Positions 38,718-57,345 of a stretch of 60,286 nucleotides of DNA are shown in pieces (the first letter of the stretch is position 1; each line of letters starts with the position of its first letter). Location: the IMG/VR virus record IMGVR_UViG_3300027911_000003, positions 1 to 60,286 of that record. The stretch is one strand, 5' to 3'. Both the position numbers and the translations under genes were made by a program. The DNA is from a virus (lineage: Duplodnaviria; Caudoviricetes). The notes below the pieces were generated by a model. That model was not told the origin of the DNA. It made no database searches and saw nothing but the letters and a program-made list of their open reading frames with translations.

Positions 38718-40847
38718 CTATGGTTGAACAAACGGCGTCCCATTGTCGACCCGAGCCTTGGCGGGCAAGCCGGAGCATGGCCCGCTGACATTAGCCGTGC
38801 AGTTGGTTGTCGTAGGCCCCGACTGGACTTTGGTCGAGCCCTGCGCGTTTACCCAGGGCCAGGTATATCCGCTTCCCGAAGCAAAGAACGCAGGCGCCAC
38901 GCTCGTATAAAAAGAGTTTGGCACTGCTGGATTACTCGGATCGTTGAGCGAATTCGTAACGTAGTCATAGTTGGAGAGGCGAAGCAGCGGACATTGATCG
39001 CTTCCGTCGGTACAAGCCCCCGCTGTGCCCTGCTGGCTCCATACCTCTGGATCTGAACCTGGATCTCCGCCGTCCGACCCTCCCGTTACCCAGATCGCGT
39101 TCGATCCGCCCTGAACATGGAAAGACCATCCTGTCATTGCGCCGGACGTTCCAATCACATTTCCAATGAAGGAGTACCAATATTCGGCAAGAGCGACCGC
39201 CATACCAGTCGCGCCATTATCGAAGGAGCCGCCCCCCCCAGCGCCAGGGATGCTTGCAGCATCATTGATCGTGATATTGTTGTGGTAGTCGTGAAAAGGC
39301 GTGCGGAAGCCAGTCACGTCGTTCCGAAAAAATGTCTGGAATGGCGTGCCGCCCCACACGGGATCGGAGCTGGCTTGAAACGACCAGTTGCCCTCGAACA
39401 ACGTGTGATGAGTCCCCCACCAGTGACTGGCGTTCATCCCGACTTCCGATTCGCCTACGGTGCTATCACCCAAAAGAGAATCGTCAAAATAATTATAGGC
39501 GATGACCGAACCTCCTCCGGCCCCGCGCATCACCATAACTTTGTCGGCGAGAGTGGAAATACTATTCTCTATGAGGTTTTCGGATGACCCCCTATCAATT
39601 GACCAATTGTATGAATGTCCGCCAGAAGTGGGATTAGCTGAAATATGACTGTAGATTCCTTCTATTTGACAGCGGAAGCACGCTTCAAGCGCTATATCCC
39701 CTTGATTATAATATCCAAAGTATATCGTTGACTCCACGTTCTTAGCCCAACAATAGGCGCACGCTGCCATCATTATGGATGAGGCGTCCGCATTTTGCAA
39801 AGTCATGTTTTCGAGCCCAGCCATAGATACAATTGGCGCGGAACTACTCGCGCCGCCATATACATTTTGTATTTGGGCCGTCATAGCGGTGCGATAAGAG
39901 ATCATAATCGGCGAGTCGAAGGTAATCGTGCCGCTGCCTATCGATGCAATTTGTTTCATTTCGCTCGTAACATTCAGGCAATTGTTAGGAGATCCGCTAT
40001 AGCTAACAATGCAAGGGTTAGTTACCGGTGTGGATCCTCCGTTGCAATTCCTCGATCCAGATTGACAGGTCGGGTTCTGCGCCCGCCAGTTGTCCCGGTA
40101 ATCTGGAGTGCTCCATTGAGTTTCACCAACCCAAGTCCAGGACGTTTGCCAACCCAAGTTGGAAGCAACTTCGCTGAGCAAGACTTGCGTTCCCACCGTG
40201 AAGCCGGTGGTGCTGGCAACGCTGATCGTGCTCGCCCCAGCCGCAGCGTCAGATGTTAGATTGGTTGGCGCGCTAAGACTTACATTCCCATATCCGTCCG
40301 TCCCGCCGATCAAAAAATGCGCGCTTACACTTAGCCCCTGCGACGAACCAATTACCGCCCCGCCCGATCGGCGGATCAGCGTGCATGTCGTCATCGACGG
40401 CGTAGAGGGATAGCCAGTCCCGCCGCTCGCCGGAACAATGGGGCTAACTCCTGCCGCCCCTGCGCATGCGCCCGATCCGCGTACAGTGATCGACCTGTTG
40501 ATAGCGACCGAGCTTCCCTCAGCGATGGTGAAGGTGCCGACCGATAGCAAGACGTAATCATTCACCGCACAGGCGTTGATCGCGGCCTGGATGGCGCTGC
40601 TGTCGTCACTCCCGCTTCCAATAGGCGTGAGCGTCGCTCCGCACTGTGTGGTGCGGTTCGGAATCCCGCCTATGGATTGAAGCCCGGCTTTCGTCCAGTT
40701 GACCCAAGCGCTACGATCCGCAGGAAGCAGTCCAGCGGTCGGATCACTAACGACACTGCCCGCAGTCATAAATATGGCAAACGCCGCTATGGCCGGAGCG
40801 GCGGAAACAATCGCCCCCAACACACCAATTGCAACGGGCCATCGCAT
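38718..40847 (-). CDS. Secreted right-handed beta-helix (pectate-lyase-like) tailspike/depolymerase
   Basis: Signal peptide; DDSSAIQAAINAC..YVLLSVGTF start motif; ENLIENS..., HHTLFEGN coils; 16 Cys. Confidence 0.8.
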   Translation of the reverse strand: MRWPVAIGVLGAIVSAAPAIAAFAIFMTAGSVVSDPTAGLLPADRSAWVNWTKAGLQSIGGIPNRTTQCGATLTPIGSGSDDSSAIQAAINACAVNDYVLLSVGTFTIAEGSSVAINRSITVRGSGACAGAAGVSPIVPASGGTGYPSTPSMTTCTLIRRSGGAVIGSSQGLSVSAHFLIGGTDGYGNVSLSAPTNLTSDAAAGASTISVASTTGFTVGTQVLLSEVASNLGWQTSWTWVGETQWSTPDYRDNWRAQNPTCQSGSRNCNGGSTPVTNPCIVSYSGSPNNCLNVTSEMKQIASIGSGTITFDSPIMISYRTAMTAQIQNVYGGASSSAPIVSMAGLENMTLQNADASSIMMAACAYCWAKNVESTIYFGYYNQGDIALEACFRCQIEGIYSHISANPTSGGHSYNWSIDRGSSENLIENSISTLADKVMVMRGAGGGSVIAYNYFDDSLLGDSTVGESEVGMNASHWWGTHHTLFEGNWSFQASSDPVWGGTPFQTFFRNDVTGFRTPFHDYHNNITINDAASIPGAGGGGSFDNGATGMAVALAEYWYSFIGNVIGTSGAMTGWSFHVQGGSNAIWVTGGSDGGDPGSDPEVWSQQGTAGACTDGSDQCPLLRLSNYDYVTNSLNDPSNPAVPNSFYTSVAPAFFASGSGYTWPWVNAQGSTKVQSGPTTTNCTANVSGPCSGLPAKARVDNGTPFVQP

Positions 40848-40848
40848 C

Positions 40849-41589
40849 CTATTGCCCGACGCCCATCAGGGTACGTAGGGGTACCGCTGCGACGCTTCCT
40901 GACGCCTTAACCGCGTCAACAACCGTCTCATGGCAAACAGGCGTGTTCGACCAGCCAACGGGAAGAGCTGTCTGCGTCGCCGAAACCACCTTATAGGCGT
41001 TTCCGAGATAATCCCCAGGAGCCCCCGTCAAGTCCGTGAACCCAGCAACGGGCGTCGCATTCGACGTATTCCCTGCGTTGCAAAAGCCAAAAATCATGTC
41101 ATTCGCATTTGTCGTGGTGATGTTCACACTATCTGCTAGGGCCGACGGCGGCGTGGTAATATTCCCATCGAAGTTAACACTGGTCCCCGACGAGCTACAG
41201 CCTGAAATCGCCACCGCCTGAATGGCCGTAAAGGCCGTTCCTGTTTGCGTGGCAGTAATCACATCGCTAGACAAGGTTCCTGATACTGCCGTGCTCCACT
41301 CCGACGTGTTATATCCTGTCGATCCAGGATCATACGGCGATCCAGACCTCGCGGTCCAGGTGCTTCCAGCAGTATCTGCAAGAGTGTGCGTAGCTCCAGT
41401 TCCGCCCCCGCTAGTCACGATAACGATGATGCAGTCCCCTGCATTGGTCGTGCTTAGGGTCACAGCGGTAGTTGTCGAACTCCCTGTCGCATTAATCGGA
41501 TGAGAACTCGCATTCGGATCAATCGCTATTACGGCCGAGGCCGGAAACAGCCACAGGAACCCAAGAAGGAAGGCGGCAAGAAATCTCAT
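40849..41589 (-). CDS. Secreted beta-sandwich appendage protein
   Basis: Signal peptide; TTNAGDCIIV / TTNANDMIFG internal repeat; ends RTLMGVGQ; 4 Cys. Confidence 0.78.
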   Translation of the reverse strand: MRFLAAFLLGFLWLFPASAVIAIDPNASSHPINATGSSTTTAVTLSTTNAGDCIIVIVTSGGGTGATHTLADTAGSTWTARSGSPYDPGSTGYNTSEWSTAVSGTLSSDVITATQTGTAFTAIQAVAISGCSSSGTSVNFDGNITTPPSALADSVNITTTNANDMIFGFCNAGNTSNATPVAGFTDLTGAPGDYLGNAYKVVSATQTALPVGWSNTPVCHETVVDAVKASGSVAAVPLRTLMGVGQ

Positions 41590-43628
41590 TGCTGCACGTA
41601 AGCTACCTGCCCCGAGGTCTGTCCCGTTCCACTAAGCAGCAGACACACGTTCGCCGCAGTCGCGTTCGTATCAGCGGATGGGGAAATCACTGTTCCGACC
41701 CCAGAGCCTTCATTATGGCCGCCATTTGCCGCCAAGTTCCATCCTGTGGCCGCAGTCGTTCCGCCTGCCAGGCCAAAAATATTCGTTGCGCACGTTGTTC
41801 CCGTCCCCTCGACAAGAGCGATATTTTGCGCAGTCGCTGAAACGAGATTGAGAGCGCAAATGTAGGTTTTCTTGCTCGCGGTCCCCGTAATGACTTGACC
41901 ACTCGCGGTCAGATTGATGACACCGCCAGATTTTGCCGACCCAAGGCACGGATCGCCAGCGGGGCTAAGCGCCACCACGAGCGCAGGGTCCGCCGCAACC
42001 GCAGCCGTGCTCGCAGCTTTTGTCGCGGCGGCGGCATGGATTCCGTCCGTGATCTCGGTGAACCCCGGATTCGTGACAGAAAGCGCCGTGCCATTCACCT
42101 GCGTCTGGTTCACCGCTAAGGGCGTCATTGAGGCGACGCCTTGGACGGTCAAGATATTCCCCGATGCCGCTCCCGCAGTTCCGAGGCCCTGCATCGTCAC
42201 CTGCCCGCTTGCCCCATTCCCGACGACCTTGACGTTCCCGCTTCCGTCCCCCGCCATCTGGATCCAGTTCGATCCGTTTGATACATAGTTGAACCCCACA
42301 GCGGGAGTATTAGCGAGAGAGGCCGAGTTCGCGATCGTCGCGTTGTTCGCGACAAGCGTGGGCGTATTCGGCAGTTGCGGAAGCGCCGCCGCCACCCCGC
42401 TCCAATCAGACGCTTGAACAGCGATCGTCGCGGTCCCCGACGTGAACGCCGTCGCGCGAACCCGAAAATGGGTCGCCCGCGCGACATTGGCATAGCCGGC
42501 AAAGTTGCCCGTCACGCCAGCTCCTGAGAACGTAGAATGACCGCCGATTATCCCATCCTGAAAGATCGGCACGGCGAAATAGGTCGTGCCGCCATCCATC
42601 GAAACTTCGGTTTGGAGTGTCAGACTGTGCGTGCCTGTGACTTGGACGCCGATGCTTTGCGTGCCGGGCGTCAGCGCATAAGTCGCAAAGCTGGCGGCGG
42701 TCGGCGTCCCCGTAACCGCGGACTGAGAGTTCGACCATGAGGCCGATGTCGTCGCAGCGTCAGCGGCGGTAATGCTCGAACTGCCCGCTGTCGCGGTCAA
42801 TGTCTGGTCAGCCGGAAGGGTAACAGGAGACGAATTCGCTGGAGCTGCGGCGCCGTTCGCATTTGTGTTCGTCACAAAGGCGTTGAAGCCGGGAACCAAG
42901 ACCGCTCCCGGCGAAGTCCCGTAATTCGCCATCGCGCCCAACGTGCCGCCGCCCCAGCCCGTAATGGAGGTTGAAGACGAGCACCCCGTGATGCAGTTAA
43001 CACGCAGGTTGCCAGCCACATCGAGCGAAAGCGGGTCAGTCTGCGCATTCGTATAGCTGGGCGGGCTTGTCGTTACGGCGCCCATCGAGAGCCCACCGCT
43101 TTGCCCAGAAGTCGTTGACCCGAGAGTGGCCGCCGTCGGTTGATTGGTGGAAGTGGCCGCGCCACTAGGCAGCGGGAGCGACGCGGCGCTCACCGGCTGC
43201 GTCGTCTGCCAAAAGGTCCCCGAAACGGGAAACGTCGCCCCTGTGCCCGGCGATACGAACCATGGCGTTCCCGCGGTGTTGGCGGTAAGGCCGACCGTCC
43301 AAGTTCCCGACTGCGCCACAGGAGGAGGCGATGAAAACGCCGGCAATGTCCCCGTAATCCCAACCGATCCAGCGACAATGTCCGCATTAACCCCGATGCC
43401 GTTTGTCGGCGCCACACCCCATGCCGTCACGTTCGCATGAGTGAGCGGCGTAGTTCCATCGCCGATGACGACGGTTCCCGTGCAATTGCCCGAGGCGTCA
43501 ACCACGACCGCTAAATTCTGCGTCACGCCCCCCGCATCCTTGCCCGTGAGAGGGCTTGGGCAGGCCGCAAAGGCTGCGGTAGGGATCATCAGCAACAGGG
43601 CCGAGAGAAGCCACGATTTGATTATCAT
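41586..43628 (-). CDS. Secreted fibre-like protein (paralog of 54458-55327)
   Basis: MIIKSWLLSALLLMIPTAAFA|AC; FWQTTQPVSAASLPLPSGAATS fibre motif; 8 Cys. Confidence 0.82.
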   Translation of the reverse strand: MIIKSWLLSALLLMIPTAAFAACPSPLTGKDAGGVTQNLAVVVDASGNCTGTVVIGDGTTPLTHANVTAWGVAPTNGIGVNADIVAGSVGITGTLPAFSSPPPVAQSGTWTVGLTANTAGTPWFVSPGTGATFPVSGTFWQTTQPVSAASLPLPSGAATSTNQPTAATLGSTTSGQSGGLSMGAVTTSPPSYTNAQTDPLSLDVAGNLRVNCITGCSSSTSITGWGGGTLGAMANYGTSPGAVLVPGFNAFVTNTNANGAAAPANSSPVTLPADQTLTATAGSSSITAADAATTSASWSNSQSAVTGTPTAASFATYALTPGTQSIGVQVTGTHSLTLQTEVSMDGGTTYFAVPIFQDGIIGGHSTFSGAGVTGNFAGYANVARATHFRVRATAFTSGTATIAVQASDWSGVAAALPQLPNTPTLVANNATIANSASLANTPAVGFNYVSNGSNWIQMAGDGSGNVKVVGNGASGQVTMQGLGTAGAASGNILTVQGVASMTPLAVNQTQVNGTALSVTNPGFTEITDGIHAAAATKAASTAAVAADPALVVALSPAGDPCLGSAKSGGVINLTASGQVITGTASKKTYICALNLVSATAQNIALVEGTGTTCATNIFGLAGGTTAATGWNLAANGGHNEGSGVGTVISPSADTNATAANVCLLLSGTGQTSGQVAYVQQ

Positions 43629-43813
43629 CTTACCACCGTGAAGTTGGTCATTATATCGCAGCCGACGTCTGAATAATCCGTGCTTATGTTGATCGCGCAT
43701 GGCGTCCCCGCATTCCCGTGCGTCCAAGCATAACTAACTCTCGCAACGAACAGTAGCATCAAAAGGGTGAGAACCGCAGCTATTGGCCGAAAACGCATTT
43801 TTGCATCGGTCAC
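43625..43813 (-). CDS. Secreted Cys-pair micro-protein, mature N-terminus WTHG
   Basis: Signal peptide ending SYA|WTHG; CAINISTDYSDVGC. Confidence 0.65.
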   Translation of the reverse strand: MTDAKMRFRPIAAVLTLLMLLFVARVSYAWTHGNAGTPCAINISTDYSDVGCDIMTNFTVVR

Positions 43814-44001
43814 TTTACGAGCGAGACCGTTCCCTTGTTTGAGTGCGAGGAATTGTATGTCTTCGCCTTCGTGTTACTCTTGGACGAGTTATAGTTGATG
43901 GACGCGCGATTGTTGTTCGTGTTCGAATGCGATTTGACCTTCGCGGCGGCAAGGGCGTTCGACGCCAAAAGCATCGCGGAAAGAAAGATCAGCGCTCTCA
44001 T
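43810..44001 (-). CDS. Secreted S/N/K-rich peptide with three S(H/K)SN motifs
   Basis: AGGAG RBS; signal peptide ending ALA|A. Confidence 0.65.
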   Translation of the reverse strand: MRALIFLSAMLLASNALAAAKVKSHSNTNNNRASINYNSSKSNTKAKTYNSSHSNKGTVSLVK

Positions 44002-44846: not shown

Positions 44847-44852
44847 CGCTCC

Positions 44853-46150: not shown

Positions 46151-46152
46151 TG

Positions 46153-46710
46153 TCAGGGCCTAGCAAGGCCGCATGTCGCCGCGCGCCTCTCGGACTGCCA
46201 AAATGTCGGGAAGCCACCCTTGGCGTGCGACGCGGACACTAGCTCGAAGAAATGCGCCATCCAAGCCGGATCGGTCGAAGGATCGCTGTGGCCGCCGCCG
46301 AGCGGACCCGTTTCGTAATGCGAGCAAATCCCAGGCGTCCGTCCCGCCTGAGATCGAACGCAAGGAATATCCATCGCGTGGAGATGGAAAGCGAAGATAT
46401 CGGCGAGCGCCTGGATTTCGACCGCAGCGAACCCCTTGGCGGAAATACCCGCCATCTCGAACCCGATCGAACGTGGATTGACGTTGCAGGCATGCCAAGC
46501 CTTCATGCCGATGTCGACCATTTGCGTCGCCTCGCCGCCATCCTCCCGAATGACGAAATGCGCGCTGACTTGGCTCTGCCGCATCTGAAACCAAGAGACG
46601 GCGCCCGAATAGCCGCCCTCCGTATCGTGAAGGACAAGCAAGTCGATGTGCGCGCCGCCGCGAGATGAGAAATTCGGCGAGGGAACCCATTTGAGAGGAG
46701 GTAGCGTCAT
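46153..46710 (-). CDS. Endolysin, N-acetylmuramoyl-L-alanine amidase (Amidase_2)
   Basis: SPNFSSR..LVLHDTEG..VSAHFVI..KAWHA..N.RSIGFE..H..HSDP. Confidence 0.92.
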   Translation of the reverse strand: MTLPPLKWVPSPNFSSRGGAHIDLLVLHDTEGGYSGAVSWFQMRQSQVSAHFVIREDGGEATQMVDIGMKAWHACNVNPRSIGFEMAGISAKGFAAVEIQALADIFAFHLHAMDIPCVRSQAGRTPGICSHYETGPLGGGHSDPSTDPAWMAHFFELVSASHAKGGFPTFWQSERRAATCGLARP

Positions 46711-47000: not shown

Positions 47001-47003
47001 GCG

Positions 47004-49304: not shown

Positions 49305-49352
49305 GTTCGCTCCTTTTTACAGCCTAAATGCGTCATGGGCATGATCGCCCAT

Positions 49353-52300
49353 TTAGCAGGGATTCGCGGGCGCGTTTATTCGCACAATTGATCCGTAGTC
49401 CGGCGAGCCCGTGATTGGCAACCCCGCATCGCAGGTCACGTGATCGAGAACCCAGCCGCCATAAGTTCCGACAACGTTTGTAAACGACTGCCCCGTACCA
49501 TTAAAGATGTCATCCTGTATAAGAACATTATTGAACGTATTAGGAGAATATGGAACCGCGAAATCTCCGGTCGGATCAAAGGCTATGTTTCCAGAGGCGT
49601 TATTGGATGAGAGAAGAGTGGATTCCGCAACAACGGAGTTCGTGATCAAGGCGCCGCCCTTTGCAAACCATGCGCGAGCATTAGTGTGCGCTTGATTCGT
49701 CACTGTTGCTTTGTAAACGATCAGATTTGTGAATCCGGTTTCGTCGTTCCAATAGACAACATCCGAGTGGATTTCCCCTTGGCTGATTTGGACGGTAGAT
49801 CCCGCAGTTATGCCGCCAGCAGCTATTGGGTAATTGAAAGTGATCCGCGCGTGGTAGCCGGAATTCCCGGTCAACTGGCCGCATCCGCTCGGCTGCCCAT
49901 AGGATAGATCATCCAAGCACGAGATGACTGGAATGTTTCCTGCCGCCCCCGTGAAGGCCGCACTATTGTTGATCGCCCATTGGTTCGCATTCTGCCCGCA
50001 ATAGGCTTGGCTCGCGCCGTTGGTATTGCAATTGGAATCGTATGATCCGATGAGGTTCGAGGCGATGCTTGTGACCGCACTACCCGTGAAAGTCAGAGCG
50101 AAGCATGCGCCGACGCCACTCGACCCGGAAACCGTCGATTGGCAGACAGTGATCGGGTTCGGCGAAGGCGTTGTGCAGTTGCCTGCATTCGATCCGTTCG
50201 TTCCCGGGGGAGAAATCGCAATGATCTGCCCGTTGTAAATGTTGACTGCGTTGGCCGCCGGAAGCGCAACTGTTGGAGCCGTAACGCACGTCAGCCCCGC
50301 CGCCGCGATGTTGAGTGAAATGATATTATTTGCGCTGTAGTTGAAGCTCCCGTTGCCATAGGGCGAGAACGGGAAGTTACCCGCGTTTGTATCGGGAACC
50401 GCTGCCGTTGAATTTCCGGGATTTGGTAAATTTGCGACGAGATTGAGCGTCCACGGGCCGACGCCCGCGCAAGATGGCGCGCAGCTTGTGGCGGTCCCGC
50501 CGGCAAATACGGTCCAGCTATTGCCCTGCCAATACCCGACCGTGTCCAGCGTCGCGATGTTAGCGACGGCGTTGCCAACGCCGGGCGCTTGGCCGCCGAT
50601 GCGCACAAACGTCACATTGTCGTCGTAAGAGCCGAGATTGCGCGTGATATATTTTTCGGTCGTATTCGAGGTATAGACCGCGCCGCCGATGAAATTGTCC
50701 TGCGTTACCGTTCCCGGGCACGCGCCGGCATAATTGATCGGCTTCGAGCAGCCGGCCTGGTTTAAGAGGCCATTGTTAGTCTCGCCCGCGCCGATCACCA
50801 AAGCCCCGTTCAACCAGGCCATGGTCTGGCCGTTCATCACCGGCGTGATCTGGGTTCCGGAAAAATCGATCTTGCCGTCGTAGGACCACGCCTGGATGCC
50901 GCCGCTGGCGGTCACGGCGGTGGTGACGGATTGGTAGTTTCCAGACTGCCCGGCGCAATGCTGGCTGATTTTGCCCCAGCCATTGCCAACGGCGATCACG
51001 GCGCCGGCATTGATGCCTTGCTGAGAGGTGACGCCAATCCACGCATATTGCTGCGGAAAACTGGCGGTTCCGTCCATCAGGCAAAACGTCAGTTCATCGC
51101 TGATGCTGACGGCCTGAGACGTGCCCGCATAGGTGCTCAGCGCGCAGACATTCGCCGTGCTGTTTGGATTGGTCGAGAGCGTCACCGTGGCGCTGCCGGC
51201 GGTGAGGCCGTTCGAACTCACGACATAGAGCGGTTGCTGCGGACTGACGGTCGCGCCGCCCGTCGCCGCTGTCGTCATAATTGAACCCGCCGGACTAATA
51301 CTTGCGAAGGTCAACTCGTCGCCAGCAACGAACGCGCCGAGCGAGGCGGGCGATTGAAACTCCCACGCATAGACCGTGAACGTCGAGACTGTGCTGCCAC
51401 AGGAGCTAGAGGAACCGGTCGGCGACGCCGTCGTGTTGGTCGTTCGCGCCGAATAGCTCTTCATCGCGAGCCCGACGGCATAGGAGAGATTGTTGCACGG
51501 CGCGGTCGAGGTCAGGCAATTGCCGCTATCGCTCGCCGCGCTCGTCGCGGTCGCGCAATTGGCCCCGGCGGTTTGAGCGCAAATCCAGAAGGTGTGCGTC
51601 GATGCGAAGGCGGTCAGATTGCCGTTGGCATTGGTGTTGATCCAGAGCGAATCGGAGAGCGAGTTGCCCTGGATGCCGGCGCGCTTGAGCGTAAGCTGCC
51701 CGTCCGTGCAATCGTTGGCGCCGCCGTCGGTCATATCGACGCCGCCGCTGAATGTCAGCGTCTGCGAGACCGTCCCATAGCCGCCTGCGGTCGTGATGTT
51801 GTAGGTCGCGCCGCTGCTGCCCGCCGTACCGCTCGCGAGCGCTCCCGTCGAATAGATCGTCCCGCTTTCGTTGAAATTCGCGCTCGTAACTTTGAGTTCG
51901 CCGCCCGTACCGAAGCCGCCAGATAACGTTACGATTCCGCTCGGGCCGGTGAGATAGTTTCCGCCCGCGCTGATCGAGCCGGCGGTGATGCCGCCGTTGC
52001 CATCGATCGCCGAGACCGTGAAGGTCGCCTGCGTAAAAAGCCCGGAACCGCCGGCGATATTGAGCACGTCGCCGTTGTGATAGCCATTGCCGGTCGTGGT
52101 CCCCGCCCCGGCGAGCGCCCCCGCCGTCGCCGACCCGGAAACATAGGTCATCGTGAAGGCGGCGCCGCGATTGGTGGTCCTGTCCGGGCTGACGGACGAC
52201 TGAACGACTGGATTGGATGGCGTAACCGAATAGGTTCCGGCGGTCTGGATTGAGAACGTCAGGATCGCGCCATTCGCGTCGACGCTCAAAACCTTGAGGA

Positions 52301-53462
52301 CGGTCGCGGTCGTGAACGTGCCACCGGCGAGCGTCAGTAGATCATTGACCGCGTAGTTGTAGCCACCCGGCCCGACCGCGGCGGCGTTGACATATTGCAC
52401 CGTCCAAGAAACCGTCGAATCGAACAGCGCGGCTTTGCCGTAGGCGCTGGTGAAATTCGAGCCCAGCGTCAGCACGCCGCCAGAGATCGATCCGGTGACG
52501 CTACCGCTATGCGCAAGGCCGAATGCGTTGCCGGTGTAATTGCTGTCGGTGCGGACGGCGTAGGATGTGTCGCTCGTGCTCAGGCACAGCGCCGCGCCGC
52601 TGGTTCCGGTCAGCGTCAGCGCGACGCCCGAATTCCAGCCATGCGGCTCGGGGTTGGCGCCAGTAAAGACGCTCTCCGAAATGACTGTCGCGGTCGGCGA
52701 GCCCGTTCCCGCGCCGCTCAGGGTTTGTGAGCCCTGCGGGCCGGCGGTGGTATAAACGCCGCCGCCGCTATAGGCGGCTTTTGCGCTGGCGATGGCGCTG
52801 CCGCTGATGGTCGAGACCGTCCCGAACGCCGCCGTGGTGACGCCGCTGCCGCCGCCGATGGTGACCGCGGCCCCTGTCGCCCAGCCGCTGCCGCCAGAGG
52901 CGCCGCTGATGCTGGAGACGCCCTGGTAGCTCGCCGAATAGCCCCGGCTGTCTTGCAGGACAAAAGGCGGCCCGACGACAGGATAAATGATCGCTCGGAT
53001 TTCGTGCCGCCCATCCGTCCAAGTCGCGGGGTTGAACGGGACGCAATAGAGAGCAAGCCCGTCCAGCGGCGTCATCGCCGTGGCGGCTGTTCCCCCATCC
53101 GCAAAAAACGCGACTTTGTAAATCCCCGGCGTCGTGACGGTTCCGCTCGAGCCTGGCTTGGCATGGAACCCGTCGACGCAGAAATAATTCGTTCCCGAGA
53201 TGAAGGTTTGAAACGGTCGAAGCGTATTTGTCGGATTGCCGCTCCAAACGCCAAAAGCGTCGAAGCCGTAGCCGTAGGTTGAAGAGTTAAACCCGAGGTT
53301 CGTCTGGGGCGCGGGCTCGGCGATTGGAGCCCATGCCGAGCCTTGGACTGACCCCGGCACGAGAAACCCCGGCGAGCCGTGCGTCCATGCGTCCGCGAAC
53401 TGAGGGAGGGCGAGCAGGCTGCAAACGAGCGCCCCTAGGACAAGGGCGAGACGCTTCAGCAT
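49353..53462 (-). CDS. Giant secreted multidomain fibre/adhesin, 1369 aa
   Basis: MLKRLALVLGALVCSLLALPQFADA|WTHG; G/S/T/A-rich beta repeats; 26 Cys; ends in Cys. Confidence 0.85.
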   Translation of the reverse strand: MLKRLALVLGALVCSLLALPQFADAWTHGSPGFLVPGSVQGSAWAPIAEPAPQTNLGFNSSTYGYGFDAFGVWSGNPTNTLRPFQTFISGTNYFCVDGFHAKPGSSGTVTTPGIYKVAFFADGGTAATAMTPLDGLALYCVPFNPATWTDGRHEIRAIIYPVVGPPFVLQDSRGYSASYQGVSSISGASGGSGWATGAAVTIGGGSGVTTAAFGTVSTISGSAIASAKAAYSGGGVYTTAGPQGSQTLSGAGTGSPTATVISESVFTGANPEPHGWNSGVALTLTGTSGAALCLSTSDTSYAVRTDSNYTGNAFGLAHSGSVTGSISGGVLTLGSNFTSAYGKAALFDSTVSWTVQYVNAAAVGPGGYNYAVNDLLTLAGGTFTTATVLKVLSVDANGAILTFSIQTAGTYSVTPSNPVVQSSVSPDRTTNRGAAFTMTYVSGSATAGALAGAGTTTGNGYHNGDVLNIAGGSGLFTQATFTVSAIDGNGGITAGSISAGGNYLTGPSGIVTLSGGFGTGGELKVTSANFNESGTIYSTGALASGTAGSSGATYNITTAGGYGTVSQTLTFSGGVDMTDGGANDCTDGQLTLKRAGIQGNSLSDSLWINTNANGNLTAFASTHTFWICAQTAGANCATATSAASDSGNCLTSTAPCNNLSYAVGLAMKSYSARTTNTTASPTGSSSSCGSTVSTFTVYAWEFQSPASLGAFVAGDELTFASISPAGSIMTTAATGGATVSPQQPLYVVSSNGLTAGSATVTLSTNPNSTANVCALSTYAGTSQAVSISDELTFCLMDGTASFPQQYAWIGVTSQQGINAGAVIAVGNGWGKISQHCAGQSGNYQSVTTAVTASGGIQAWSYDGKIDFSGTQITPVMNGQTMAWLNGALVIGAGETNNGLLNQAGCSKPINYAGACPGTVTQDNFIGGAVYTSNTTEKYITRNLGSYDDNVTFVRIGGQAPGVGNAVANIATLDTVGYWQGNSWTVFAGGTATSCAPSCAGVGPWTLNLVANLPNPGNSTAAVPDTNAGNFPFSPYGNGSFNYSANNIISLNIAAAGLTCVTAPTVALPAANAVNIYNGQIIAISPPGTNGSNAGNCTTPSPNPITVCQSTVSGSSGVGACFALTFTGSAVTSIASNLIGSYDSNCNTNGASQAYCGQNANQWAINNSAAFTGAAGNIPVISCLDDLSYGQPSGCGQLTGNSGYHARITFNYPIAAGGITAGSTVQISQGEIHSDVVYWNDETGFTNLIVYKATVTNQAHTNARAWFAKGGALITNSVVAESTLLSSNNASGNIAFDPTGDFAVPYSPNTFNNVLIQDDIFNGTGQSFTNVVGTYGGWVLDHVTCDAGLPITGSPDYGSIVRINAPANPC

Positions 53463-54448
53463 GTGCCAGCACCCGAGAGAGTGTTGAGGCTCGTGCAGAG
53501 CGAGCTGATATTCCCCGTCGTCAGCGCAGTCGTGCCCCACCCGATCGCGGCGGTCACTTGACCCTTGAGGGGGGCCGCCGTAGTGTTGTTGCTATTCACG
53601 CCCAAATTAAGTGCGTACGTGCTTGATCCAGTTGGGGTCGACGATGTGGCGTTCGCCGAGCCACAAGTACCGCCGACGCAGGCCGTTCTGCTTGTGGCGG
53701 ACGCGAAAATGCCTGACCACATGTTCCATATAGGCGCTGTACCGCCTGCCTGAGCGCTCAAGGGGAATGCCCCGCCGTGCGCCTCTATAGCACTAAGGGT
53801 AATAACGCTGCTGCCATTAAGTGTATTTTGTATATAATGGCCTTCCCAAGTGGAAATTGCATGATCTATGAAGGAAAACGGGACTATGCTTGTGCTCGCC
53901 GCATTATTTTCATAAGCGTATACTGCCATAGTAAACGGAGTAACCGGGCCGGTGATCCCGGTAAATATGTAATTAACGGCCGTGCCATCAAATACAGTGC
54001 AATCCCCCGGAGTCGTCACGCAAGCGCCGGCCTGCAAATACACCCCGCTATGATTATTCGCAGATGTTCCAGTACGAGAATTACCTGTCTGGTCATAATA
54101 AAAATTAGTATAGCAAGTGCTCAGGCATGTTACGCTTATTAAGGCATTTGCGGTCCCGGCAGTGCTTGAGTAACTTGCCGTGCCGCCGTTGCAGACAATC
54201 GCAGTCCTACTTACGCTCGATGCAGCATTGATATTATCGCCAATCAGCGCGACGACAAAGTTAGCGCTGAGGGCGCTGCTAAGACAACGAGTGCTCCATC
54301 CGAAATAGGGCGTACCCGCAACAGAAATATCAAGCGGCAGGCCTGAGGCGACTGCTGGTACGGACTTCCAAATGCCGAAGCCCATGTCCGCCTGGGCCGG
54401 GCAAGCAAGCGACAGGCACGCTAGAAGCGCGATAAATAGTTTTCGCAT
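53456..54448 (-). CDS. Secreted LamG/ConA-like lectin-domain protein
   Basis: Signal peptide ending AQA|D; YDQTGNSR, WNMWSG, LKGQV..AI.W pattern; 10 Cys; ends in Cys. Confidence 0.75.
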   Translation of the reverse strand: MRKLFIALLACLSLACPAQADMGFGIWKSVPAVASGLPLDISVAGTPYFGWSTRCLSSALSANFVVALIGDNINAASSVSRTAIVCNGGTASYSSTAGTANALISVTCLSTCYTNFYYDQTGNSRTGTSANNHSGVYLQAGACVTTPGDCTVFDGTAVNYIFTGITGPVTPFTMAVYAYENNAASTSIVPFSFIDHAISTWEGHYIQNTLNGSSVITLSAIEAHGGAFPLSAQAGGTAPIWNMWSGIFASATSRTACVGGTCGSANATSSTPTGSSTYALNLGVNSNNTTAAPLKGQVTAAIGWGTTALTTGNISSLCTSLNTLSGAGTC

Positions 54449-54457
54449 CGGCGGCGC

Positions 54458-55327
54458 TCAGTTGTAGGTCATGCTCAGCGTGGCCCCAACGACCGCGTTG
54501 CCGTTGTCGGTCGTTGCCGCGGGATTGCCGAAAGCCACGAGACAATAGCTGATGCCCGTGCTGAAAGCGCGGCCAACCGGATATGTCAGATGATAGCCGG
54601 GACTCGTCGCGTTCGAGGGGATTGGGATGATGTCGATTAGGCTCGTGCCGCTTGAGCATGTCGGAGAAGTCGATGTATTGTAGAGCTTCAACTCCATCGC
54701 CGTCGTGGTCGATTGTGTCACCGTCACCGAGTAGAGCGTGCCCGCCGACGCCTTGACGTTCGTCGCATTGTTGGACGCCGCGCTCGCGAGCCACGTCGAG
54801 CTAAGGGCTGCGCCGGTTGTGCCCGCAACGGGGACCGTGCCGCCGATGGTCGCCGATCCAGCGGGAACTGACGCCCCCGTATTTGTGGCGATCGTCGCGA
54901 GGCTGCCAATCTCGGTTGTCTGGTTGGCTGCGGTCGCGGTCCCGTTGAGCGTTCCGAGGTTGACGGTCGGCGTGTTCGTAATAGCGGCGTTGACGCCGGG
55001 AACAAGAACGGCGCCAGGCGACGTGCCGTAGTTCGCCATCGCGCCCAGAACGCCGCCGCCCCACGTAATGACGTTGTCGTTGGCGCTGAGAGCGTTCGTC
55101 CCCGCCGTTCCCCACGCGGTCACGCTCGCATAAAGCGTCGAGTTGTTCGGATCAGATAGACCGATGATCGGAAAAAGATAGCCCGTCGCGGTCTGCTGAC
55201 CTTCTAGCATCGTGGCGCCCGCGCCGGGCGTAACCGTCAGCGTCGTGACGCCTGCGTTTGCCACAGATAGGCTGCCCGCGAGAAAGAGCGCCGCCACGCC
55301 CGCCGCAAGAATATGTCTCTTGATCAT
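54458..55327 (-). CDS. Secreted fibre/adaptor protein (paralog of 41586-43628)
   Basis: MIKRHILAAGVAALFLAGSLSVANA|G; NVKASAGTLY...LKLYN...FSTGISY C-terminal domain; 2 Cys. Confidence 0.8.
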   Translation of the reverse strand: MIKRHILAAGVAALFLAGSLSVANAGVTTLTVTPGAGATMLEGQQTATGYLFPIIGLSDPNNSTLYASVTAWGTAGTNALSANDNVITWGGGVLGAMANYGTSPGAVLVPGVNAAITNTPTVNLGTLNGTATAANQTTEIGSLATIATNTGASVPAGSATIGGTVPVAGTTGAALSSTWLASAASNNATNVKASAGTLYSVTVTQSTTTAMELKLYNTSTSPTCSSGTSLIDIIPIPSNATSPGYHLTYPVGRAFSTGISYCLVAFGNPAATTDNGNAVVGATLSMTYN

Positions 55328-55353
55328 GGTCGCTTCTTTCTGGGTTATCATTC

Positions 55354-57345
55354 TCAATACCTAGATGAGAAATCGAGCGTAAACATTTGTCCGAACGCCC
55401 CCGATGAGTTACCAAAGCTATAGAAATTGCTATTTGTTCCTATTACTGGATAATCCTGTGCAGCATAAGTATGTTTTCCAATAATAGGAGCCGATGGGCA
55501 ATGAGCGATAGCACTTCCTTGGACAGTTCCCGTCGACGATGCGTTATCCCACGGCGTTCCCGCAACACATACCGGAGTTGCTGCATCGATGCTAACGCCT
55601 ATAAATGCCGCTGATCCAGAATTTCCATTTGATGTTGACGTGAAGCCCATATAATTGGCTTCAACCGTATCTTCATTTACTCCAGAAACGACGGTTATTA
55701 TATTCTTTGTCGTTCCATTATCATGAGCGACCCATGTCGCCGACGCCGATGGCACAAACGCCGACCCAGAATTGTCCAGAACAATCGCCTTGACATTAAC
55801 GCGATTGTAGTAATTCCAGCAATTTATTACTGCGCCTCCGACAGGACCGCCGCTCGCCCCAGCCGGAAACGCGTTAAATGTAAACGTTGCGGCGGCTGGA
55901 TCCGTCGCGCATGTGCCTAAATACGTCGCCTGATTGGCCGGCACGGCGAAAGAGGTCGACCCATTATAGCAATTCGAAAGCGCATTTTTGTTCGTTACGT
56001 AAGACCGCGTCGAGAAATCCAGCTGTGAATATCCAGTTCCGCGCGCGGTATTTGAACCGCCTGTGTCGCTCGCCCAGCCCCCGCCGCTTCCATTCGTCGC
56101 GTGGCAGATAACGCTTCCGACAATCGCCCATTCATCAAACACGCCCGCGGCGTTGGCAGTGCCGGTGCCGCTTGCCGGAATAGTGTCGCTGAGTTCGTTC
56201 GCCGTGATCGTCGCCGTCTGATCTGCGGTTCCATTGAAATAAGGATAGCCATTTGCCACATAGCTATCGTAAAAGATCGTTGCTTTCGCGAGTTGCGGCG
56301 TCGTCATAACGGGCGTGTGCGACGCGAGGGTAAGCCGTCCGCCCGGGATCGTGTTCGTACCCCCCCCGCTAAATAGCGCGAAACCACCCGACGTTCCCGC
56401 CGCGACGCCAAGCGGAGTGACGTTCGCCGCATTGATGCCGAGATAGGGCAGGTTTGGGATCGGCGAATAGATAAACCAGCCAGGACCGCCCCCGCTGACG
56501 CTCGCCTGATAGACGATCATGTATTCCGTGTTCGGCTGGATTTCGCCGCCCGTGAGCGCCGTAGGGCCGCTGGGACCTGATTTCCAAACTGAAAGCGCCC
56601 CCGTGCCGACATTGATCGTTGCGGCCCCCGTGTTCGCTGCGGCTCCGACAAAGAAAATCGCGGTTCCGTTTGCCGAACTAAACCCAGCGTCCGTGACGGT
56701 TATTGTGTTTGCGCTACCCGTCGCGGCTCCCGCGTAGAAGGGGTTTCCTCCCGCGACCTGCACGAGTTTATCCCAAATCACATTTCCGAGACTGTCATAG
56801 ACGATCTGGCGATATTGGCCGACCCCCCAGATCGTCGCGCAGCCGTTGCTATCGAGGCCGATCGGATTGGTGTTGAGGATCGTCTGCGTCGGGTTTTGCC
56901 ACGTCTGCGAAGGCGTGAGAGTGCTCGGGATATACATGCCGACGCTGCCGCCCGCGATTGCGCTGTTGACTGTCGTCGCGAGGACGGGAACGGAAAAGCC
57001 CGAAACGCCGCCGATCGTCCCGCTCGCGGCGCTTAGGACATCCGCGACGACATAATTGATGCCCGGATTGAGAATGACGACCGCCGTCACCGTCCCGCCC
57101 GCAACCGTTATGTTGGCCGTTGCGGTGGTCCCTGAGCCGCCTGTCAGCGTGACGTTCGTGTATGTCCCCGCCGTGCCGCCGCTGCCGCCTGTGATCGTCC
57201 CTAGGACCGCGACTTGCCCGTTAATGCCGACCGTGGCTTGAAAACAAACTTCCCCCGGAGGAATCTGGTTCGCTTGCGCGAAAGCGTGCGCGGTACTAAA
57301 AGCAAGAAGAACGGCCGCCGCGAGATATTTTGCAATGCGAACCAT
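55354..57345 (-). CDS. Tailspike/fibre with podovirus virion-attachment domain and a signal peptide
   Basis: MVRIAKYLAAAVLLAFSTAHAFA|Q; AGGSVGMYIPSTLTPSQTWQ...NTNPIGLDSNG..IWG.GQYRQIVYDSLGNVIWD; ANTGAATIN and PGGRLTL fibre motifs; 8 Cys. Confidence 0.85.
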   Translation of the reverse strand: MVRIAKYLAAAVLLAFSTAHAFAQANQIPPGEVCFQATVGINGQVAVLGTITGGSGGTAGTYTNVTLTGGSGTTATANITVAGGTVTAVVILNPGINYVVADVLSAASGTIGGVSGFSVPVLATTVNSAIAGGSVGMYIPSTLTPSQTWQNPTQTILNTNPIGLDSNGCATIWGVGQYRQIVYDSLGNVIWDKLVQVAGGNPFYAGAATGSANTITVTDAGFSSANGTAIFFVGAAANTGAATINVGTGALSVWKSGPSGPTALTGGEIQPNTEYMIVYQASVSGGGPGWFIYSPIPNLPYLGINAANVTPLGVAAGTSGGFALFSGGGTNTIPGGRLTLASHTPVMTTPQLAKATIFYDSYVANGYPYFNGTADQTATITANELSDTIPASGTGTANAAGVFDEWAIVGSVICHATNGSGGGWASDTGGSNTARGTGYSQLDFSTRSYVTNKNALSNCYNGSTSFAVPANQATYLGTCATDPAAATFTFNAFPAGASGGPVGGAVINCWNYYNRVNVKAIVLDNSGSAFVPSASATWVAHDNGTTKNIITVVSGVNEDTVEANYMGFTSTSNGNSGSAAFIGVSIDAATPVCVAGTPWDNASSTGTVQGSAIAHCPSAPIIGKHTYAAQDYPVIGTNSNFYSFGNSSGAFGQMFTLDFSSRY

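What the first reader, a model, noticed from the sequence alone, without database searches (positions are those of the whole stretch)
38718..57345. Sec-exported, disulfide-folded virion appendage system: 16 late genes with signal peptides
Seen: 16 late-arm ORFs (lower coordinates 7540, 19782, 19955, 20875, 21111, 22078, 38718, 40849, 41586, 43625, 43810, 48202, 49353, 53456, 54458, 55354; about 17 kb, about 28% of the genome) begin with a basic/hydrophobic/AxA-type leader. Most mature parts are G/S/T/A/N-rich and carry phage fibre, beta-helix or lectin motifs. Established: tailed-phage structural proteins normally fold and assemble in the cytoplasm without signal peptides. Inference: this phage exports its fibre/spike parts to the periplasm for oxidative folding, and they dock on cytoplasmic particles at or after lysis. 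An alternative is a phage-encoded surface structure on the infected cell. This is my best candidate for an undescribed system.
Basis: partly seen in the sequence, partly recalled or inferred. Interest (0 to 1): 0.93.

Follow-up and report, generated by a model that had tools for sequence, protein, structure and literature searches.

The report
Phage tail fibre with export signals
This uncultured P22-like phage puts ordinary bacterial secretion signals on its only tail fibre and on 15 other late proteins, which suggests that its outer, host-recognising parts mature in the periplasm rather than in the cytoplasm where tailed-phage particles are built.

Summary
All 16 minus-strand ORFs begin with a basic/hydrophobic/AxA leader. 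Fifteen of 16 pass my heuristic, against 9 of 497 other ORFs. Together they make up 28.3% of the genome.

The key gene, 55354-57345, is the phage's only carrier of a P22-type particle-binding domain. Its predicted cleavage site exposes the same N-terminus that leaderless fibres of cultured phages start with. Leaders are kept in nearly all of 120 listed relatives and obey the -3/-1 rule. Two invariant Cys occur only in this leader-bearing lineage. Mature Cys counts are even, 26 to 3, against 115 to 128 in other ORFs.

A second leader protein, 22078-22734, has a capsid-spike/tailspike-type domain. By contrast, 38718-40847 belongs to a secreted beta-helix family that is also chromosomal in bacteria.

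Export is well supported. Docking onto particles at lysis is inferred and not shown. Disulfide folding cannot be the only reason for export, because compact relatives carry leaders without the Cys pair.

Eight literature searches found no description of this. This scan has noted the same phenomenon before on other DNA.

The parts
55354..57345 (-). Tail fibre precursor, 663 aa. Leader residues 1-23 (57277-57345). Conserved mature N-terminus residues 24-37 (57235-57276). Insert of about 90 aa with a GGSG-rich beta module (about 56971-57234). Core of the P22-type particle-binding domain residues 126-201 (56743-56970). Fibre shaft residues 203-296. TNF/C1q-like tip residues 515-663 (55357-55803).
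   Evidence: Leader. Homology of the mature N-terminus and of residues 130-200 to leaderless fibres and spikes. Fold. Family of 429 proteins with swapped C-termini. C34 and C169 invariant. Only copy of the domain in the window.
54458..55327 (-). Leader-bearing 289-aa protein directly after the fibre; 2 Cys; function unknown.
   Evidence: No Pfam or PHROG family. Shares a 15-residue identical stretch with 41586-43628.
53456..54448 (-). Leader-bearing 330-aa protein; 10 Cys in the mature part; function unknown.
   Evidence: No family.
49353..53462 (-). Leader-bearing giant protein, 1369 aa, 26 Cys in the mature part; mature N-terminus WTHG.
   Evidence: Weak PHROG hit to a 'head decoration' family at residues 357-448. 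Atlas leads to beta-helix proteins score only 0.77-0.81. No PDB sequence relative.
48202..48864 (-). Leader-bearing 220-aa Ala/Pro-rich protein inside the lysis cluster; 4 Cys; no lipobox.
   Evidence: No family.
43810..44001 (-). Leader-bearing 63-aa Ser/Asn/Lys-rich peptide; no Cys.
   Evidence: No PHROG.
43625..43798 (-). Leader-bearing 57-aa peptide; the mature 33 aa begin WTHG, like the giant protein; 2 Cys.
41586..43628 (-). Leader-bearing 680-aa protein; 8 Cys; resembles clusters that are about 90% viral.
   Evidence: Atlas score 0.93 with 191-194 shared features. G003 encodes leader-bearing proteins with a similar mature N-terminus, judged by eye.
40849..41589 (-). Leader-bearing 246-aa protein; 4 Cys.
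   Evidence: G003 encodes a 249-aa leader-bearing protein with a similar mature N-terminus, judged by eye.
38718..40847 (-). Leader-bearing 709-aa protein with 16 Cys; last gene of the late arm; probably a secreted beta-helix glycan-active enzyme.
   Evidence: 248 homologs, one named 'Pectate lyase superfamily protein', 14 of 119 listed on contigs over 100 kb. 79 of 119 have leaders. No Pfam hit for the window protein itself.
22078..22734 (-). Leader-bearing 218-aa protein with a capsid-spike/tailspike-type C-terminal domain; 2 nearly invariant Cys; first gene of a five-gene leader cassette between terS and terL.
   Evidence: 177 representative relatives. 87 of 94 full-length relatives have leaders; Cys parity 85 even, 1 odd, 1 zero. 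C40 and C67 nearly invariant. Fold.
19782..21743 (-). Four further leader-bearing ORFs of that cassette: 21111-21743 (210 aa), 20875-21111 (78 aa), 19955-20881 (308 aa, 10 Cys), 19782-19958 (58 aa). Functions unknown.
   Evidence: No PHROG or Pfam for those scanned.
7540..8028 (-). Leader-bearing 162-aa protein between the gene in the gp4 position and the hub gene; 2 Cys; weakest leader of the 16.
   Evidence: Score 4.12. The homolog in the same slot of prophage L043 scores 5.62. No PHROG.
5562..7052 (-). Context: tail hub-type protein (PHROG 'head closure Hc3'); no leader.
   Evidence: phrog_578, E 1.3e-67. Homologs in relatives.
57498..60098 (-). Context: 866-aa ejection-type protein with a cell-wall hydrolase domain, directly upstream of the fibre; no leader.
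   Evidence: PF07486 and phrog_5880.
46153..46725 (-). Context: Amidase_2 endolysin without a leader or membrane segment, which implies release by a holin.
   Evidence: PF01510, E 2.4e-19. No TM-like segment.

Best explanation
The window is a complete 60-kb P22-like podovirus genome, probably from a phage of soil Hyphomicrobiales. Its core particle proteins (terminase, portal, scaffold, coat, hub, ejection proteins) have no leaders. Its peripheral proteins do. The single tail fibre, a spike-type protein encoded beside terL and several unassigned G/S/T-rich proteins are made as precursors with Sec-type signal peptides. They are translocated to the periplasm and cut by signal peptidase I. For the fibre, this exposes the same N-terminus that leaderless relatives have. 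Many are then locked by disulfide bonds. Fibre-less, DNA-filled particles finish in the cytoplasm. They meet the periplasmic fibres when the holin opens the inner membrane or when the cell bursts, and the fibre's P22-type domain then docks on the tail hub. At least one of the 16 (38718-40847) is more likely a free secreted glycan-degrading enzyme than a particle part. Shown here: the leaders, their conservation, the cleavage-site logic, the fibre and spike folds, and the Cys pattern. Inferred: actual export, actual cleavage, and docking after membrane permeabilisation.
For: (1) Leaders: 15 of 16 ORFs pass, against 9 of 497 other ORFs. (2) Conservation: 84 of the 88 fibre relatives that match a strict motif have a leader ahead of it. 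Leader sequences diverge, while the mature sequence is conserved from the first residue. (3) Cleavage rule, anchored on the conserved mature N-terminus: -3 is A/V/S/G/T in 102 of 109 and -1 is A/G/S in 97 of 109. (4) Leaderless proteins of Ralstonia phage P4282, Pseudomonas phage PAE2 and a 'colanidase' phage start (M)TQLLPNGKQHF, VATLLPNGKQQF or MQLLQNAKTQF. These align to the residues just after the predicted cut. PAE2 and the colanidase phage carry the gene in the same slot, after the ejection proteins. All share phrog_26190. (5) Fold: residues 30-198 match P22 gp9N (2vnl Z 7.5, 81 aligned, rmsd 2.5; 8tvr Z 7.6; 8eb7 Z 7.5), Sf6 gp14N (7sg7 Z 7.3) and cyanopodophage fibres (7eeq Z 8.1). Residues 203-296 match a phage tail fibre (9b45 Z 8.7, 31% identity). 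The tip is a TNF-like lectin (9ib6 Z 11.9). (6) This is the only copy of that domain in the genome, and no leaderless fibre or spike turned up among the late proteins scanned. (7) C34 and C169 are invariant in 89 family members. Both positions are non-Cys in the leaderless homologs, and no compact relative has the pair. (8) Cys parity: 26 even to 3 odd in leader proteins, against 115 to 128 in others; Fisher p 7.8e-6. In the 22078 family it is 85 even to 1 odd. (9) 22078-22734 matches the Pa223 capsid spike (9ny6 Z 9.6) and CBA120 TSP4 (7rej Z 9.5), with the next unrelated hit at Z 6.2. (10) The trait is clade-wide: 4-8 leader proteins in each of five related records, against 0 of 46 and 3 of 56 genes in two control podoviruses. 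It also occurs in a prophage on a 634-kb Xanthobacteraceae contig. (11) Leader state changes at least 15 times on a tree of 212 attachment domains, so both forms seem viable for the same domain. (12) The endolysin has no leader, so a holin that opens the inner membrane is expected. From memory, not from a call: P22 tailspike addition is the last assembly step and works in vitro.
Against: No experiment or proteome shows that any of these proteins is exported, cleaved or present in particles. SignalP could not be run, and my heuristic is crude. The Z scores of 7.3-8.1 for the particle-binding domain lie in the range the tool calls common for unrelated matches, so that call rests on several concordant entries plus sequence homology. 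Between 23 and 44 of about 111 compact relatives have leaders but no Cys pair, so disulfide locking is not the general driver, and the selective advantage of export is unexplained. Twelve of the 16 proteins have no assigned fold or family. 38718-40847 belongs to a family that is also chromosomal in bacteria. The tree uses 78 columns, and its branch support was not examined. Recombination of N-termini would inflate the count of changes.
Confidence: 0.55

Rival explanations
1. The proteins are exported but none joins the particle. They act on the infected cell's own envelope, for example by degrading or masking receptors and polysaccharide so that progeny are not trapped and superinfection is blocked, or by forming a surface structure. 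The particle would then use some unrecognised receptor-binding protein.
For: 38718-40847 belongs to a secreted beta-helix family that is widespread on large bacterial contigs. Twelve proteins have no virion-type assignment. A follow-up on another genome read a similar cassette this way (e1-3283919; an unchecked note).
Against: The fibre keeps a strongly conserved particle-binding module in front of swapped C-termini: 32 invariant columns lie within its first 264 residues, and relatives that share only the N-terminal part are 53-64% identical there. That is hard to explain unless it binds the particle. It is the only such domain in the genome, and no leaderless fibre was found. Leaderless relatives occupy the same slot as the sole fibre.
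Confidence: 0.2
2. The leader works only partly, or differently. It may hold the fibre at the inner membrane as an anchor, or export may be inefficient so that a cytoplasmic fraction is what gets assembled while the exported fraction has a second role (dual localisation).
For: Leaders were gained or lost many times between near-identical attachment domains. That is easiest if assembly tolerates both states. Compact relatives have leaders without Cys pairs.
Against: A canonical cleavage site is conserved at exactly the mature N-terminus. Even Cys counts and the invariant Cys pair point to an oxidising compartment. Unlike SAR domains, these leaders have a c-region.
Confidence: 0.2
3. The leaders are chance hydrophobic N-termini or gene-calling artefacts.
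For: The heuristic gives 1.8-3.9% false positives. The 7540-8028 leader is weak.
Against: 15 of 16 pass, against a 1.8% background. The leaders are conserved in position across hundreds of relatives while their sequence varies.
Confidence: 0.02

Closest known systems
P22 gp9 and Sf6 gp14 tailspikes (N-terminal particle-binding domain; PDB 2vnl, 8tvr, 8eb7, 7sg7)
   Same: The domain fold at the N-terminus. The gene slot after the ejection proteins in a P22-type head and tail module. A modular design with swapped distal parts.
   Different: The window protein has a 23-residue Sec-type leader, an insert of about 90 aa splitting the domain, an invariant Cys pair, and a fibre with a TNF-like tip instead of a beta-helix spike. 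No Pfam family matches it.
Leaderless fibres and spikes sharing phrog_26190: Ralstonia phage P4282 'bacteriolytic protein' BAB13694, an unannotated ORF of Pseudomonas phage PAE2, 'colanidase' UOF78609, and prophage proteins of Ralstonia, Achromobacter and Phyllobacterium
   Same: 40-54% identity over residues 130-200, and the same first dozen residues of the mature protein. PAE2 and the colanidase phage carry the gene in the same slot.
   Different: They start directly at that N-terminus and have no leader, no insert and no Cys pair.
Leader-bearing compact fibres, for example 'tail fiber protein [Methylobacterium persicinum]' (P0344)
   Same: A leader placed directly before ATLLPPG, with A-x-A at the junction.
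   Different: No insert and no Cys pair.
Phage proteins known to use Sec: secreted or SAR endolysins and spanins
   Same: Phage late proteins that are sent across the inner membrane.
   Different: Those are lysis proteins, not particle parts. SAR domains lack a cleavage region (passages of PMC3765740), whereas these leaders have one.
Filamentous phage coat proteins (pIII, pVIII); recalled, not from a call
   Same: Virion proteins made with signal peptides and assembled outside the cytoplasm.
   Different: Those belong to ssDNA phages that extrude through the envelope. This is a tailed dsDNA phage with terminase, portal and coat.
Bdellovibrio fibre adhesins (PDB 8okw, 8ol4, 8ond)
   Same: Secreted fibre proteins with tips of a similar fold (8okw Z 7.8, 8ol4 Z 7.1; 8ond listed).
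   Different: They are cellular adhesins of a predator and have no phage particle-binding domain.
Acetobacter phage phiAX1 (LC644973)
   Same: A cultured temperate phage with a P22-type portal (35% identity) and two leader-bearing proteins of 321 and 641 aa inside its structural module.
   Different: Those proteins are unrelated in sequence to the window's fibre. In the passages I read, the paper reports neither signal peptides nor virion proteomics.

Membership tests
Sec-type signal peptide cleaved by signal peptidase I | Positively charged n-region followed by an uncharged hydrophobic h-region of about 8-18 residues | tested here: met
   15 of 16 ORFs pass the heuristic and the 16th scores just below the threshold.
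Sec-type signal peptide cleaved by signal peptidase I | Small residues at -3 and -1 before the cleavage site | tested here: met
   Fibre family: -3 is A/V/S/G/T in 102 of 109 and -1 is A/G/S in 97 of 109, anchored on the mature N-terminus.
Sec-type signal peptide cleaved by signal peptidase I | Actual translocation and cleavage | not testable with these tools
   This needs reporter fusions or N-terminal proteomics.
P22-type tailspike particle-binding (head-binding) domain | The fold of gp9N or gp14N | tested here: met
   2vnl Z 7.5 (81 aligned, rmsd 2.5), 8tvr Z 7.6, 8eb7 Z 7.5, 7sg7 Z 7.3, 7eeq Z 8.1. These Z values are middling, but six phage entries agree.
P22-type tailspike particle-binding (head-binding) domain | Sequence match to a curated Pfam head-binding family | tested here: not met
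   No Pfam family matched at E up to 0.01 for the whole protein, or up to 1 for residues 1-300.
P22-type tailspike particle-binding (head-binding) domain | Gene directly after the ejection proteins in a P22-type module | tested here: met
   The gene follows the 866-aa ejection-type protein. Leaderless homologs lie in the same order in PAE2, MW202557 and L045.
P22-type tailspike particle-binding (head-binding) domain | Binding to the tail hub of the particle | not testable with these tools
   This needs virion proteomics, in vitro tailing or cryo-EM.
phrog_26190 N-terminal module of podovirus fibres and spikes | Profile match | tested here: met
   Window residues 126-201, E 7.3e-8. The four leaderless proteins match at residues 7-101, E 1e-10 to 1.7e-14.
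TNF/C1q-like trimeric lectin tip | Jelly-roll fold of the distal domain | tested here: met
   9ib6 Z 11.9 (129 aligned, rmsd 2.4), 1rj7 Z 10.0, 4d7y Z 9.9.
TNF/C1q-like trimeric lectin tip | Trimeric state and sugar binding | not tested
   A monomer was modelled, and no ligand test was made.
SAR (signal-arrest-release) domain | Weakly hydrophobic N-terminal segment without a signal-peptidase site | tested here: not met
   The leaders have a conserved A-x-A c-region.
o-spanin or lipoprotein (considered for 48202-48864) | Lipobox with Cys at +1 | tested here: not met
   The leader ends ...SVPAMA|DPNF with no Cys nearby. Only 21111-21743 has a lipobox-like LASC.
Pectate-lyase-like beta-helix enzymes (considered for 38718-40847) | Profile match to a beta-helix or pectate-lyase family | tested here: inconclusive
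   The window protein has no Pfam hit. One of 119 listed homologs is named 'Pectate lyase superfamily protein'. No fold was predicted.
Virion spike/tailspike accessory domain (for 22078-22734) | Fold shared with a capsid spike or tailspike domains | tested here: met
   9ny6 Z 9.6, 7rej Z 9.5, 9f4a Z 9.1, 24qj Z 8.7. The next hits are Z 6.2 and 4.7.

The most novel reading that the evidence does not exclude
Tailed phages of soil Alphaproteobacteria, and by this scan's other notes several further lineages, use a two-compartment assembly line. The DNA-filled particle is built in the cytoplasm. Every part that is added last and faces outward (tail fibre, capsid or tail spikes, accessory adhesins) is sent through Sec, trimmed by signal peptidase and often disulfide-locked in the periplasm. 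The two halves are joined only when the holin breaches the inner membrane. Leaders were gained and lost repeatedly on the same attachment domain, so this would be a general, switchable route of morphogenesis that has not been described.
Probability: 0.5. Interest if true: 0.9.

Novelty: new variant of a known kind. Interest (0 to 1): 0.78.

Why it matters
Textbook assembly of tailed phages takes place entirely in the cytoplasm. If receptor-binding proteins of whole phage lineages mature in the periplasm, several things follow. The last assembly step would be tied to the lysis programme. Host Sec, signal peptidase and Dsb functions would become host-range factors. Disulfide-locked fibres could help explain particle stability in soil. 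Genome annotation pipelines that treat a signal peptide as evidence against a virion role would mislabel the very proteins that set host range. The question can be tested directly in culturable hosts, because leader-bearing relatives occur in a Methylobacterium genome and in Acetobacter phage phiAX1.

Tried and rejected
- Megablast of 15 kb against GenBank phages found no match.
- Sequence searches of three large leader proteins against PDB chains found nothing usable.
- Pfam on the ten largest leader proteins gave 0 families. PHROGs gave two weak hits.
- A portal-based prophage scan of bacterial genomes confirmed no relative. The second scan, with the fibre alignment, gave 13 loci.
- The survey of 301 genomes of the order of G006 with P0344 hit 43 genomes, mostly through the C-terminal collar domain. 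About six had the N-terminal domain, and the three other genomes I read were leaderless. It therefore said little about leader frequency.
- All-against-all BLAST of the 16 proteins found only a 15-residue identical stretch (41586 and 54458) and one weak pair. I did not confirm two paralogous three-gene cassettes. The low-complexity filter may hide more.
- Atlas leads for the giant protein were below the trust level.
- Model coordinates are not exposed, so the C34-C169 distance could not be measured.
- Complex prediction of three copies of fibre residues 24-203 with hub residues 1-460 returned 'no answer' (score 0.00 against a mark of 0.32; controls not run).
- I considered and rejected a Tat signal (no twin-arginine motif in the 16 leaders), a lipoprotein signal (only 21111-21743 has a lipobox-like LASC) and a SAR domain (a c-region is present).
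- Eight literature searches found no paper describing Sec signal peptides on fibres or spikes of tailed phages. I read only matched passages of PMC13001222, PMC3556154, PMC8566455, PMC12923769, PMC3765740 and PMC13412088. None bears on the point. Subscription journals are not covered, and supplements were closed; Table S4 of PMC8566455, the phiAX1 annotation, might be relevant.

Full report
WHAT THE WINDOW IS. The window is a complete virus record of 60,286 bp with direct terminal repeats. The repeat is 99 bp, so 60,187 bp are unique. It has no tRNA genes and no near match among GenBank phages. The late genes run on the minus strand. They include a small terminase at 23031-23381 and a large terminase at 18095-19780. 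The P22-type portal is at 15687-17882 (PF16510, E 6e-132) and the P22-type coat at 11066-12328 (PF11651). The hub-type protein is at 5562-7052 (phrog_578). A 'DNA ejection' protein lies at 2241-2960, followed by a 410-aa protein that runs across the record ends. An 866-aa ejection-type protein with a cell-wall hydrolase domain lies at 57498-60098. The early region is lambdoid in type, with ERF, YqaJ, NinB and a Cro-like protein. Eleven uncultured viral contigs share the portal at 47-62% identity. The nearest cultured phages share it at only 27-40%.

THE OBSERVATION. With refined starts, each begins with a basic, hydrophobic, small-x-small leader. SignalP was not available, so I wrote a heuristic. 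Fifteen of 16 score at least 4.6. The background is 9 of 497 other six-frame ORFs and 31 of 800 shuffled N-termini. The weakest leader, 7540-8028, has a homolog with a strong leader in the same slot of a prophage. The 16 ORFs sum to 17,028 nt, or 28.3% of the genome. The same heuristic on greedy gene calls gives 14 of 94 genes (26% of residues) in the window. Two of those 14 are probably not secreted proteins, and the caller missed four of the 16. The five related records give 4-8 genes each, or 7-16% of residues. Two control podoviruses give 3 of 56 genes (PAE2, 3.5% of residues) and 0 of 46 (MW202557). A third control, Acetobacter phage phiAX1, gives 5 of 77.

THE KEY GENE. 55354-57345 follows the ejection proteins, which is the slot of the tailspike in P22-type genomes. 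It has 429 relatives in the large protein collection. About 280 N-terminal residues are conserved (53-64% identity where only that part is shared). The C-termini are swapped and include collar, pectate-lyase-like and other domains, which is the usual design of receptor-binding proteins.

Against GenBank phages, only residues 130-200 match, and they match residues 19-89 of leaderless proteins. These are the Ralstonia phage P4282 'bacteriolytic protein' (54% identity), an unannotated ORF of Pseudomonas phage PAE2 and a 'colanidase'. In PAE2 and the colanidase phage the gene sits after the ejection-type proteins. The leaderless proteins begin (M)TQLLPNGKQHF, VATLLPNGKQQF or MQLLQNAKTQF. The window family reads A-x-A, then (Q/A)ATxLPPGExCF. 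Cutting at the predicted site would therefore regenerate the N-terminus that the leaderless proteins have by nature. All five proteins hit phrog_26190.

An AlphaFold model built on 89 relatives (mean pLDDT 78) shows a helix at residues 2-17, a low-confidence linker, and then confident beta domains. Residues 30-198, skipping the insert, align to these entries:
- P22 tailspike head-binding domain: 2vnl Z 7.5; in-situ complexes 8tvr Z 7.6 and 8eb7 Z 7.5
- Sf6 gp14N: 7sg7 Z 7.3
- cyanopodophage fibres: 7eeq Z 8.1; 9vyg Z 7.3

Residues 203-296 align to a Pseudomonas phage tail fibre (9b45 Z 8.7, 31% identity). Residues 515-663 align to TNF/C1q-type lectins (9ib6 Z 11.9). The viral structure library gives 280 hits at E up to 0.001, and the named ones are tail fibres. 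The Z values for the N-domain are middling by the tool's own note. I accept the assignment because six phage entries agree and because sequence homology and gene order say the same. tblastn finds only this one copy of the domain in the window. No leaderless fibre or spike appeared among the other late proteins scanned.

ARE THE LEADERS FUNCTIONAL? In the 120 listed relatives, 84 of the 88 that match a strict motif have a scored leader ahead of it. Most of the rest show one by eye, behind a variant motif or an over-extended start. I also anchored on the conserved mature N-terminus, which does not depend on my heuristic. All 109 sequences with the anchor carry at least 12 residues ahead of it. 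Position -3 is A/V/S/G/T in 102 of 109, -1 is A/G/S in 97 of 109, and -2 is bulky. This is the signal peptidase I rule. The leader sequences themselves are poorly conserved, while the mature protein is conserved from its first residues.

CYSTEINES. C34 and C169 are invariant in all 89 aligned family members. The leaderless homologs have H/Q and E/Q at those positions. None of the 112 compact relatives tabulated has Cys at both. Across the six clade genomes, leader proteins of at least 100 aa have even mature Cys counts in 26 cases and odd counts in 3. Two of the odd cases are cleavage-site miscalls with the Cys inside the leader. Other ORFs split 115 even to 128 odd, giving Fisher p 7.8e-6. 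In the window, every Cys-containing mature protein has an even count. For 21111-21743 this holds only if it is cut after SFA or lipidated at its LASC. These patterns fit folding in an oxidising compartment.

A COMPLICATION. I searched with the leaderless N-domain of a Beijerinckiaceae-MAG prophage (L045) and found 347 compact relatives. Of about 111 with the anchor, 67 are leaderless and 44 carry at least 12 residues ahead of it. The stricter heuristic counts 23 of 112 as leader-bearing. These leaders read A-x-A|ATLLP and come without the insert or the Cys pair. Named examples split by taxon. The leader-bearing forms are 'tail fiber protein [Methylobacterium persicinum]' and a Beijerinckiaceae MAG protein. 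The leaderless forms come from Ralstonia, Achromobacter and Phyllobacterium. On a FastTree of a 78-residue core from 212 sequences, leader state changes at least 15 times. The five shuffles I printed gave 52-60 changes. So the leader is labile on one and the same attachment domain, and disulfide locking is an add-on rather than the cause. The tree is short and I did not examine its support.

THE OTHER PROTEINS. 22078-22734 heads a five-gene leader cassette between terS and terL. Leader-bearing proteins that share its mature N-terminal motif sit in G001, G004 and G005. It has 177 representative relatives. Of 94 full-length relatives, 87 have leaders, and Cys parity is 85 even, 1 odd, 1 zero. 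Its model (pLDDT 83) matches these entries at residues 77/115-218:
- Pseudomonas phage Pa223 capsid spike: 9ny6 Z 9.6
- CBA120 TSP4: 7rej Z 9.5
- Klebsiella phage baseplate protein: 9f4a Z 9.1
- Acinetobacter phage tailspike: 24qj Z 8.7

The next hits are Z 6.2 and 4.7. It is thus a spike-type particle protein by fold.

41586-43628 resembles viral clusters (Atlas 0.93). 38718-40847 has 248 relatives, 14 of the 119 listed on contigs over 100 kb. One is named 'Pectate lyase superfamily protein', and 79 of 119 have leaders. I read it as a secreted enzyme shared between bacteria and phages, not necessarily a particle part. The giant 49353-53462 gave only weak leads. The remaining proteins have no assignment.

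HOST. The fibre alignment found a relative on a 634-kb contig of a Xanthobacteraceae MAG. A portal 49% identical to the window's lies on the same contig. The locus has the same leader-bearing genes: a 163-aa protein before the hub gene, the fibre, and a 1005-aa protein with 16 Cys. Another relative lies on a 57.9-kb contig of a Beijerinckiaceae MAG. The host is therefore probably a diderm alphaproteobacterium of the Hyphomicrobiales, so a periplasm exists.

MECHANISM. I propose that the leaders drive Sec export. Signal peptidase I would then release the mature proteins, and many would be disulfide-locked. The fibre and spike-type proteins would join cytoplasmic particles once the holin opens the inner membrane or the cell bursts. 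The endolysin (Amidase_2, 46153-46725) has no leader or membrane segment, so a holin that opens the membrane is expected. From memory, not from a call: in P22 the tailspike is added last, and adding it to spike-less heads works in vitro. The class of proteins carrying leaders here is the class that can be added last. Export, cleavage and docking are all inferred. I put 0.55 on the full chain and roughly 0.9 on export alone.

RIVALS. (1) The exported proteins act on the cell envelope and none is a particle part (0.2). This is hard to square with the conserved attachment domain and the lack of any other fibre. (2) The leader works only partly, or as an anchor, and assembly uses a cytoplasmic fraction (0.2). 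(3) Artefact (0.02).

WHAT IS KNOWN. Phage proteins known to use Sec are lysis proteins and, in filamentous phages, coat proteins. Eight full-text searches found no report of signal peptides on fibres or spikes of tailed phages. That library lacks most subscription journals. This scan's notebook holds follow-ups on other genomes that reached the same reading for a P22-like phage, a T7-type phage, a 110-kb soil phage and a 66-kb Bradyrhizobium-type phage. These are unchecked AI notes, so they do not count as independent evidence, but they show that the trait is not peculiar to this window.

VERDICT. This is a new variant of a known kind, namely podovirus tail fibres and spikes that carry export signals. 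If the docking step is real, it implies an assembly route that has not been described.

Noticed in passing
L021:5908-7950 (OK041467.1, about 14828-16870, plus strand): The tailspike-type gene of Pseudomonas phage PAE2 (681-codon open frame; phrog_34100 'tail protein', E 1e-260) is not annotated in the GenBank record. The record lists two small opposite-strand ORFs (PAE2_16, PAE2_17) there instead.
   Followed up: partly
L040:26418-29312 (Acetobacter phage phiAX1, LC644973): Two leader-bearing proteins lie inside the structural module of a cultured phage. One is a 321-aa fibre-like protein. The other is annotated 'cycloisomaltooligosaccharide glucanotransferase'; its annotated start (27492) skips an in-frame upstream start (27387) that would add a signal peptide.
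   Followed up: partly
window 47758-48192 (-): A 144-aa ORF in the lysis cluster is extremely rich in Pro, Asn, Asp and Trp (repeats such as PNDPNRPYNPNDP and HPDW). It has no PHROG family and no membrane segment.
   Followed up: no
window 1-99 and 60188-60286: A 99-bp direct terminal repeat. A 410-aa ejection-position protein starts at 1145 (-) and continues across the record ends.
   Followed up: yes
window 43625-43798 and 49353-53462 (-): A 33-residue mature peptide and the 1344-residue mature giant protein both begin WTHG directly after their leaders. The meaning is unknown.
   Followed up: no
window 43998-44846 (-): A 282-aa coiled-coil-like protein with a single C-terminal membrane segment, next to the lysis genes. 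It could be a spanin-like or tail-anchored protein. It has no family match.
   Followed up: no
window 45638-46150 (-): A 170-aa ORF overlapping the 5' part of the long ORF 44853-45914 hits phrog_1128. The true start of 44853-45914 is probably the Met at about residue 92 (MKTFRM...).
   Followed up: no
L045:9944-11269: A Beijerinckiaceae-MAG prophage has the same gene order but a leaderless 441-aa fibre as its only fibre. It is a natural comparison partner for experiments.
   Followed up: partly
L058 (G009:C1:275704-277659): The portal homolog in the Rhodanobacter glycinis genome is read through 4 TAG codons, so it may be a decayed prophage.
   Followed up: no
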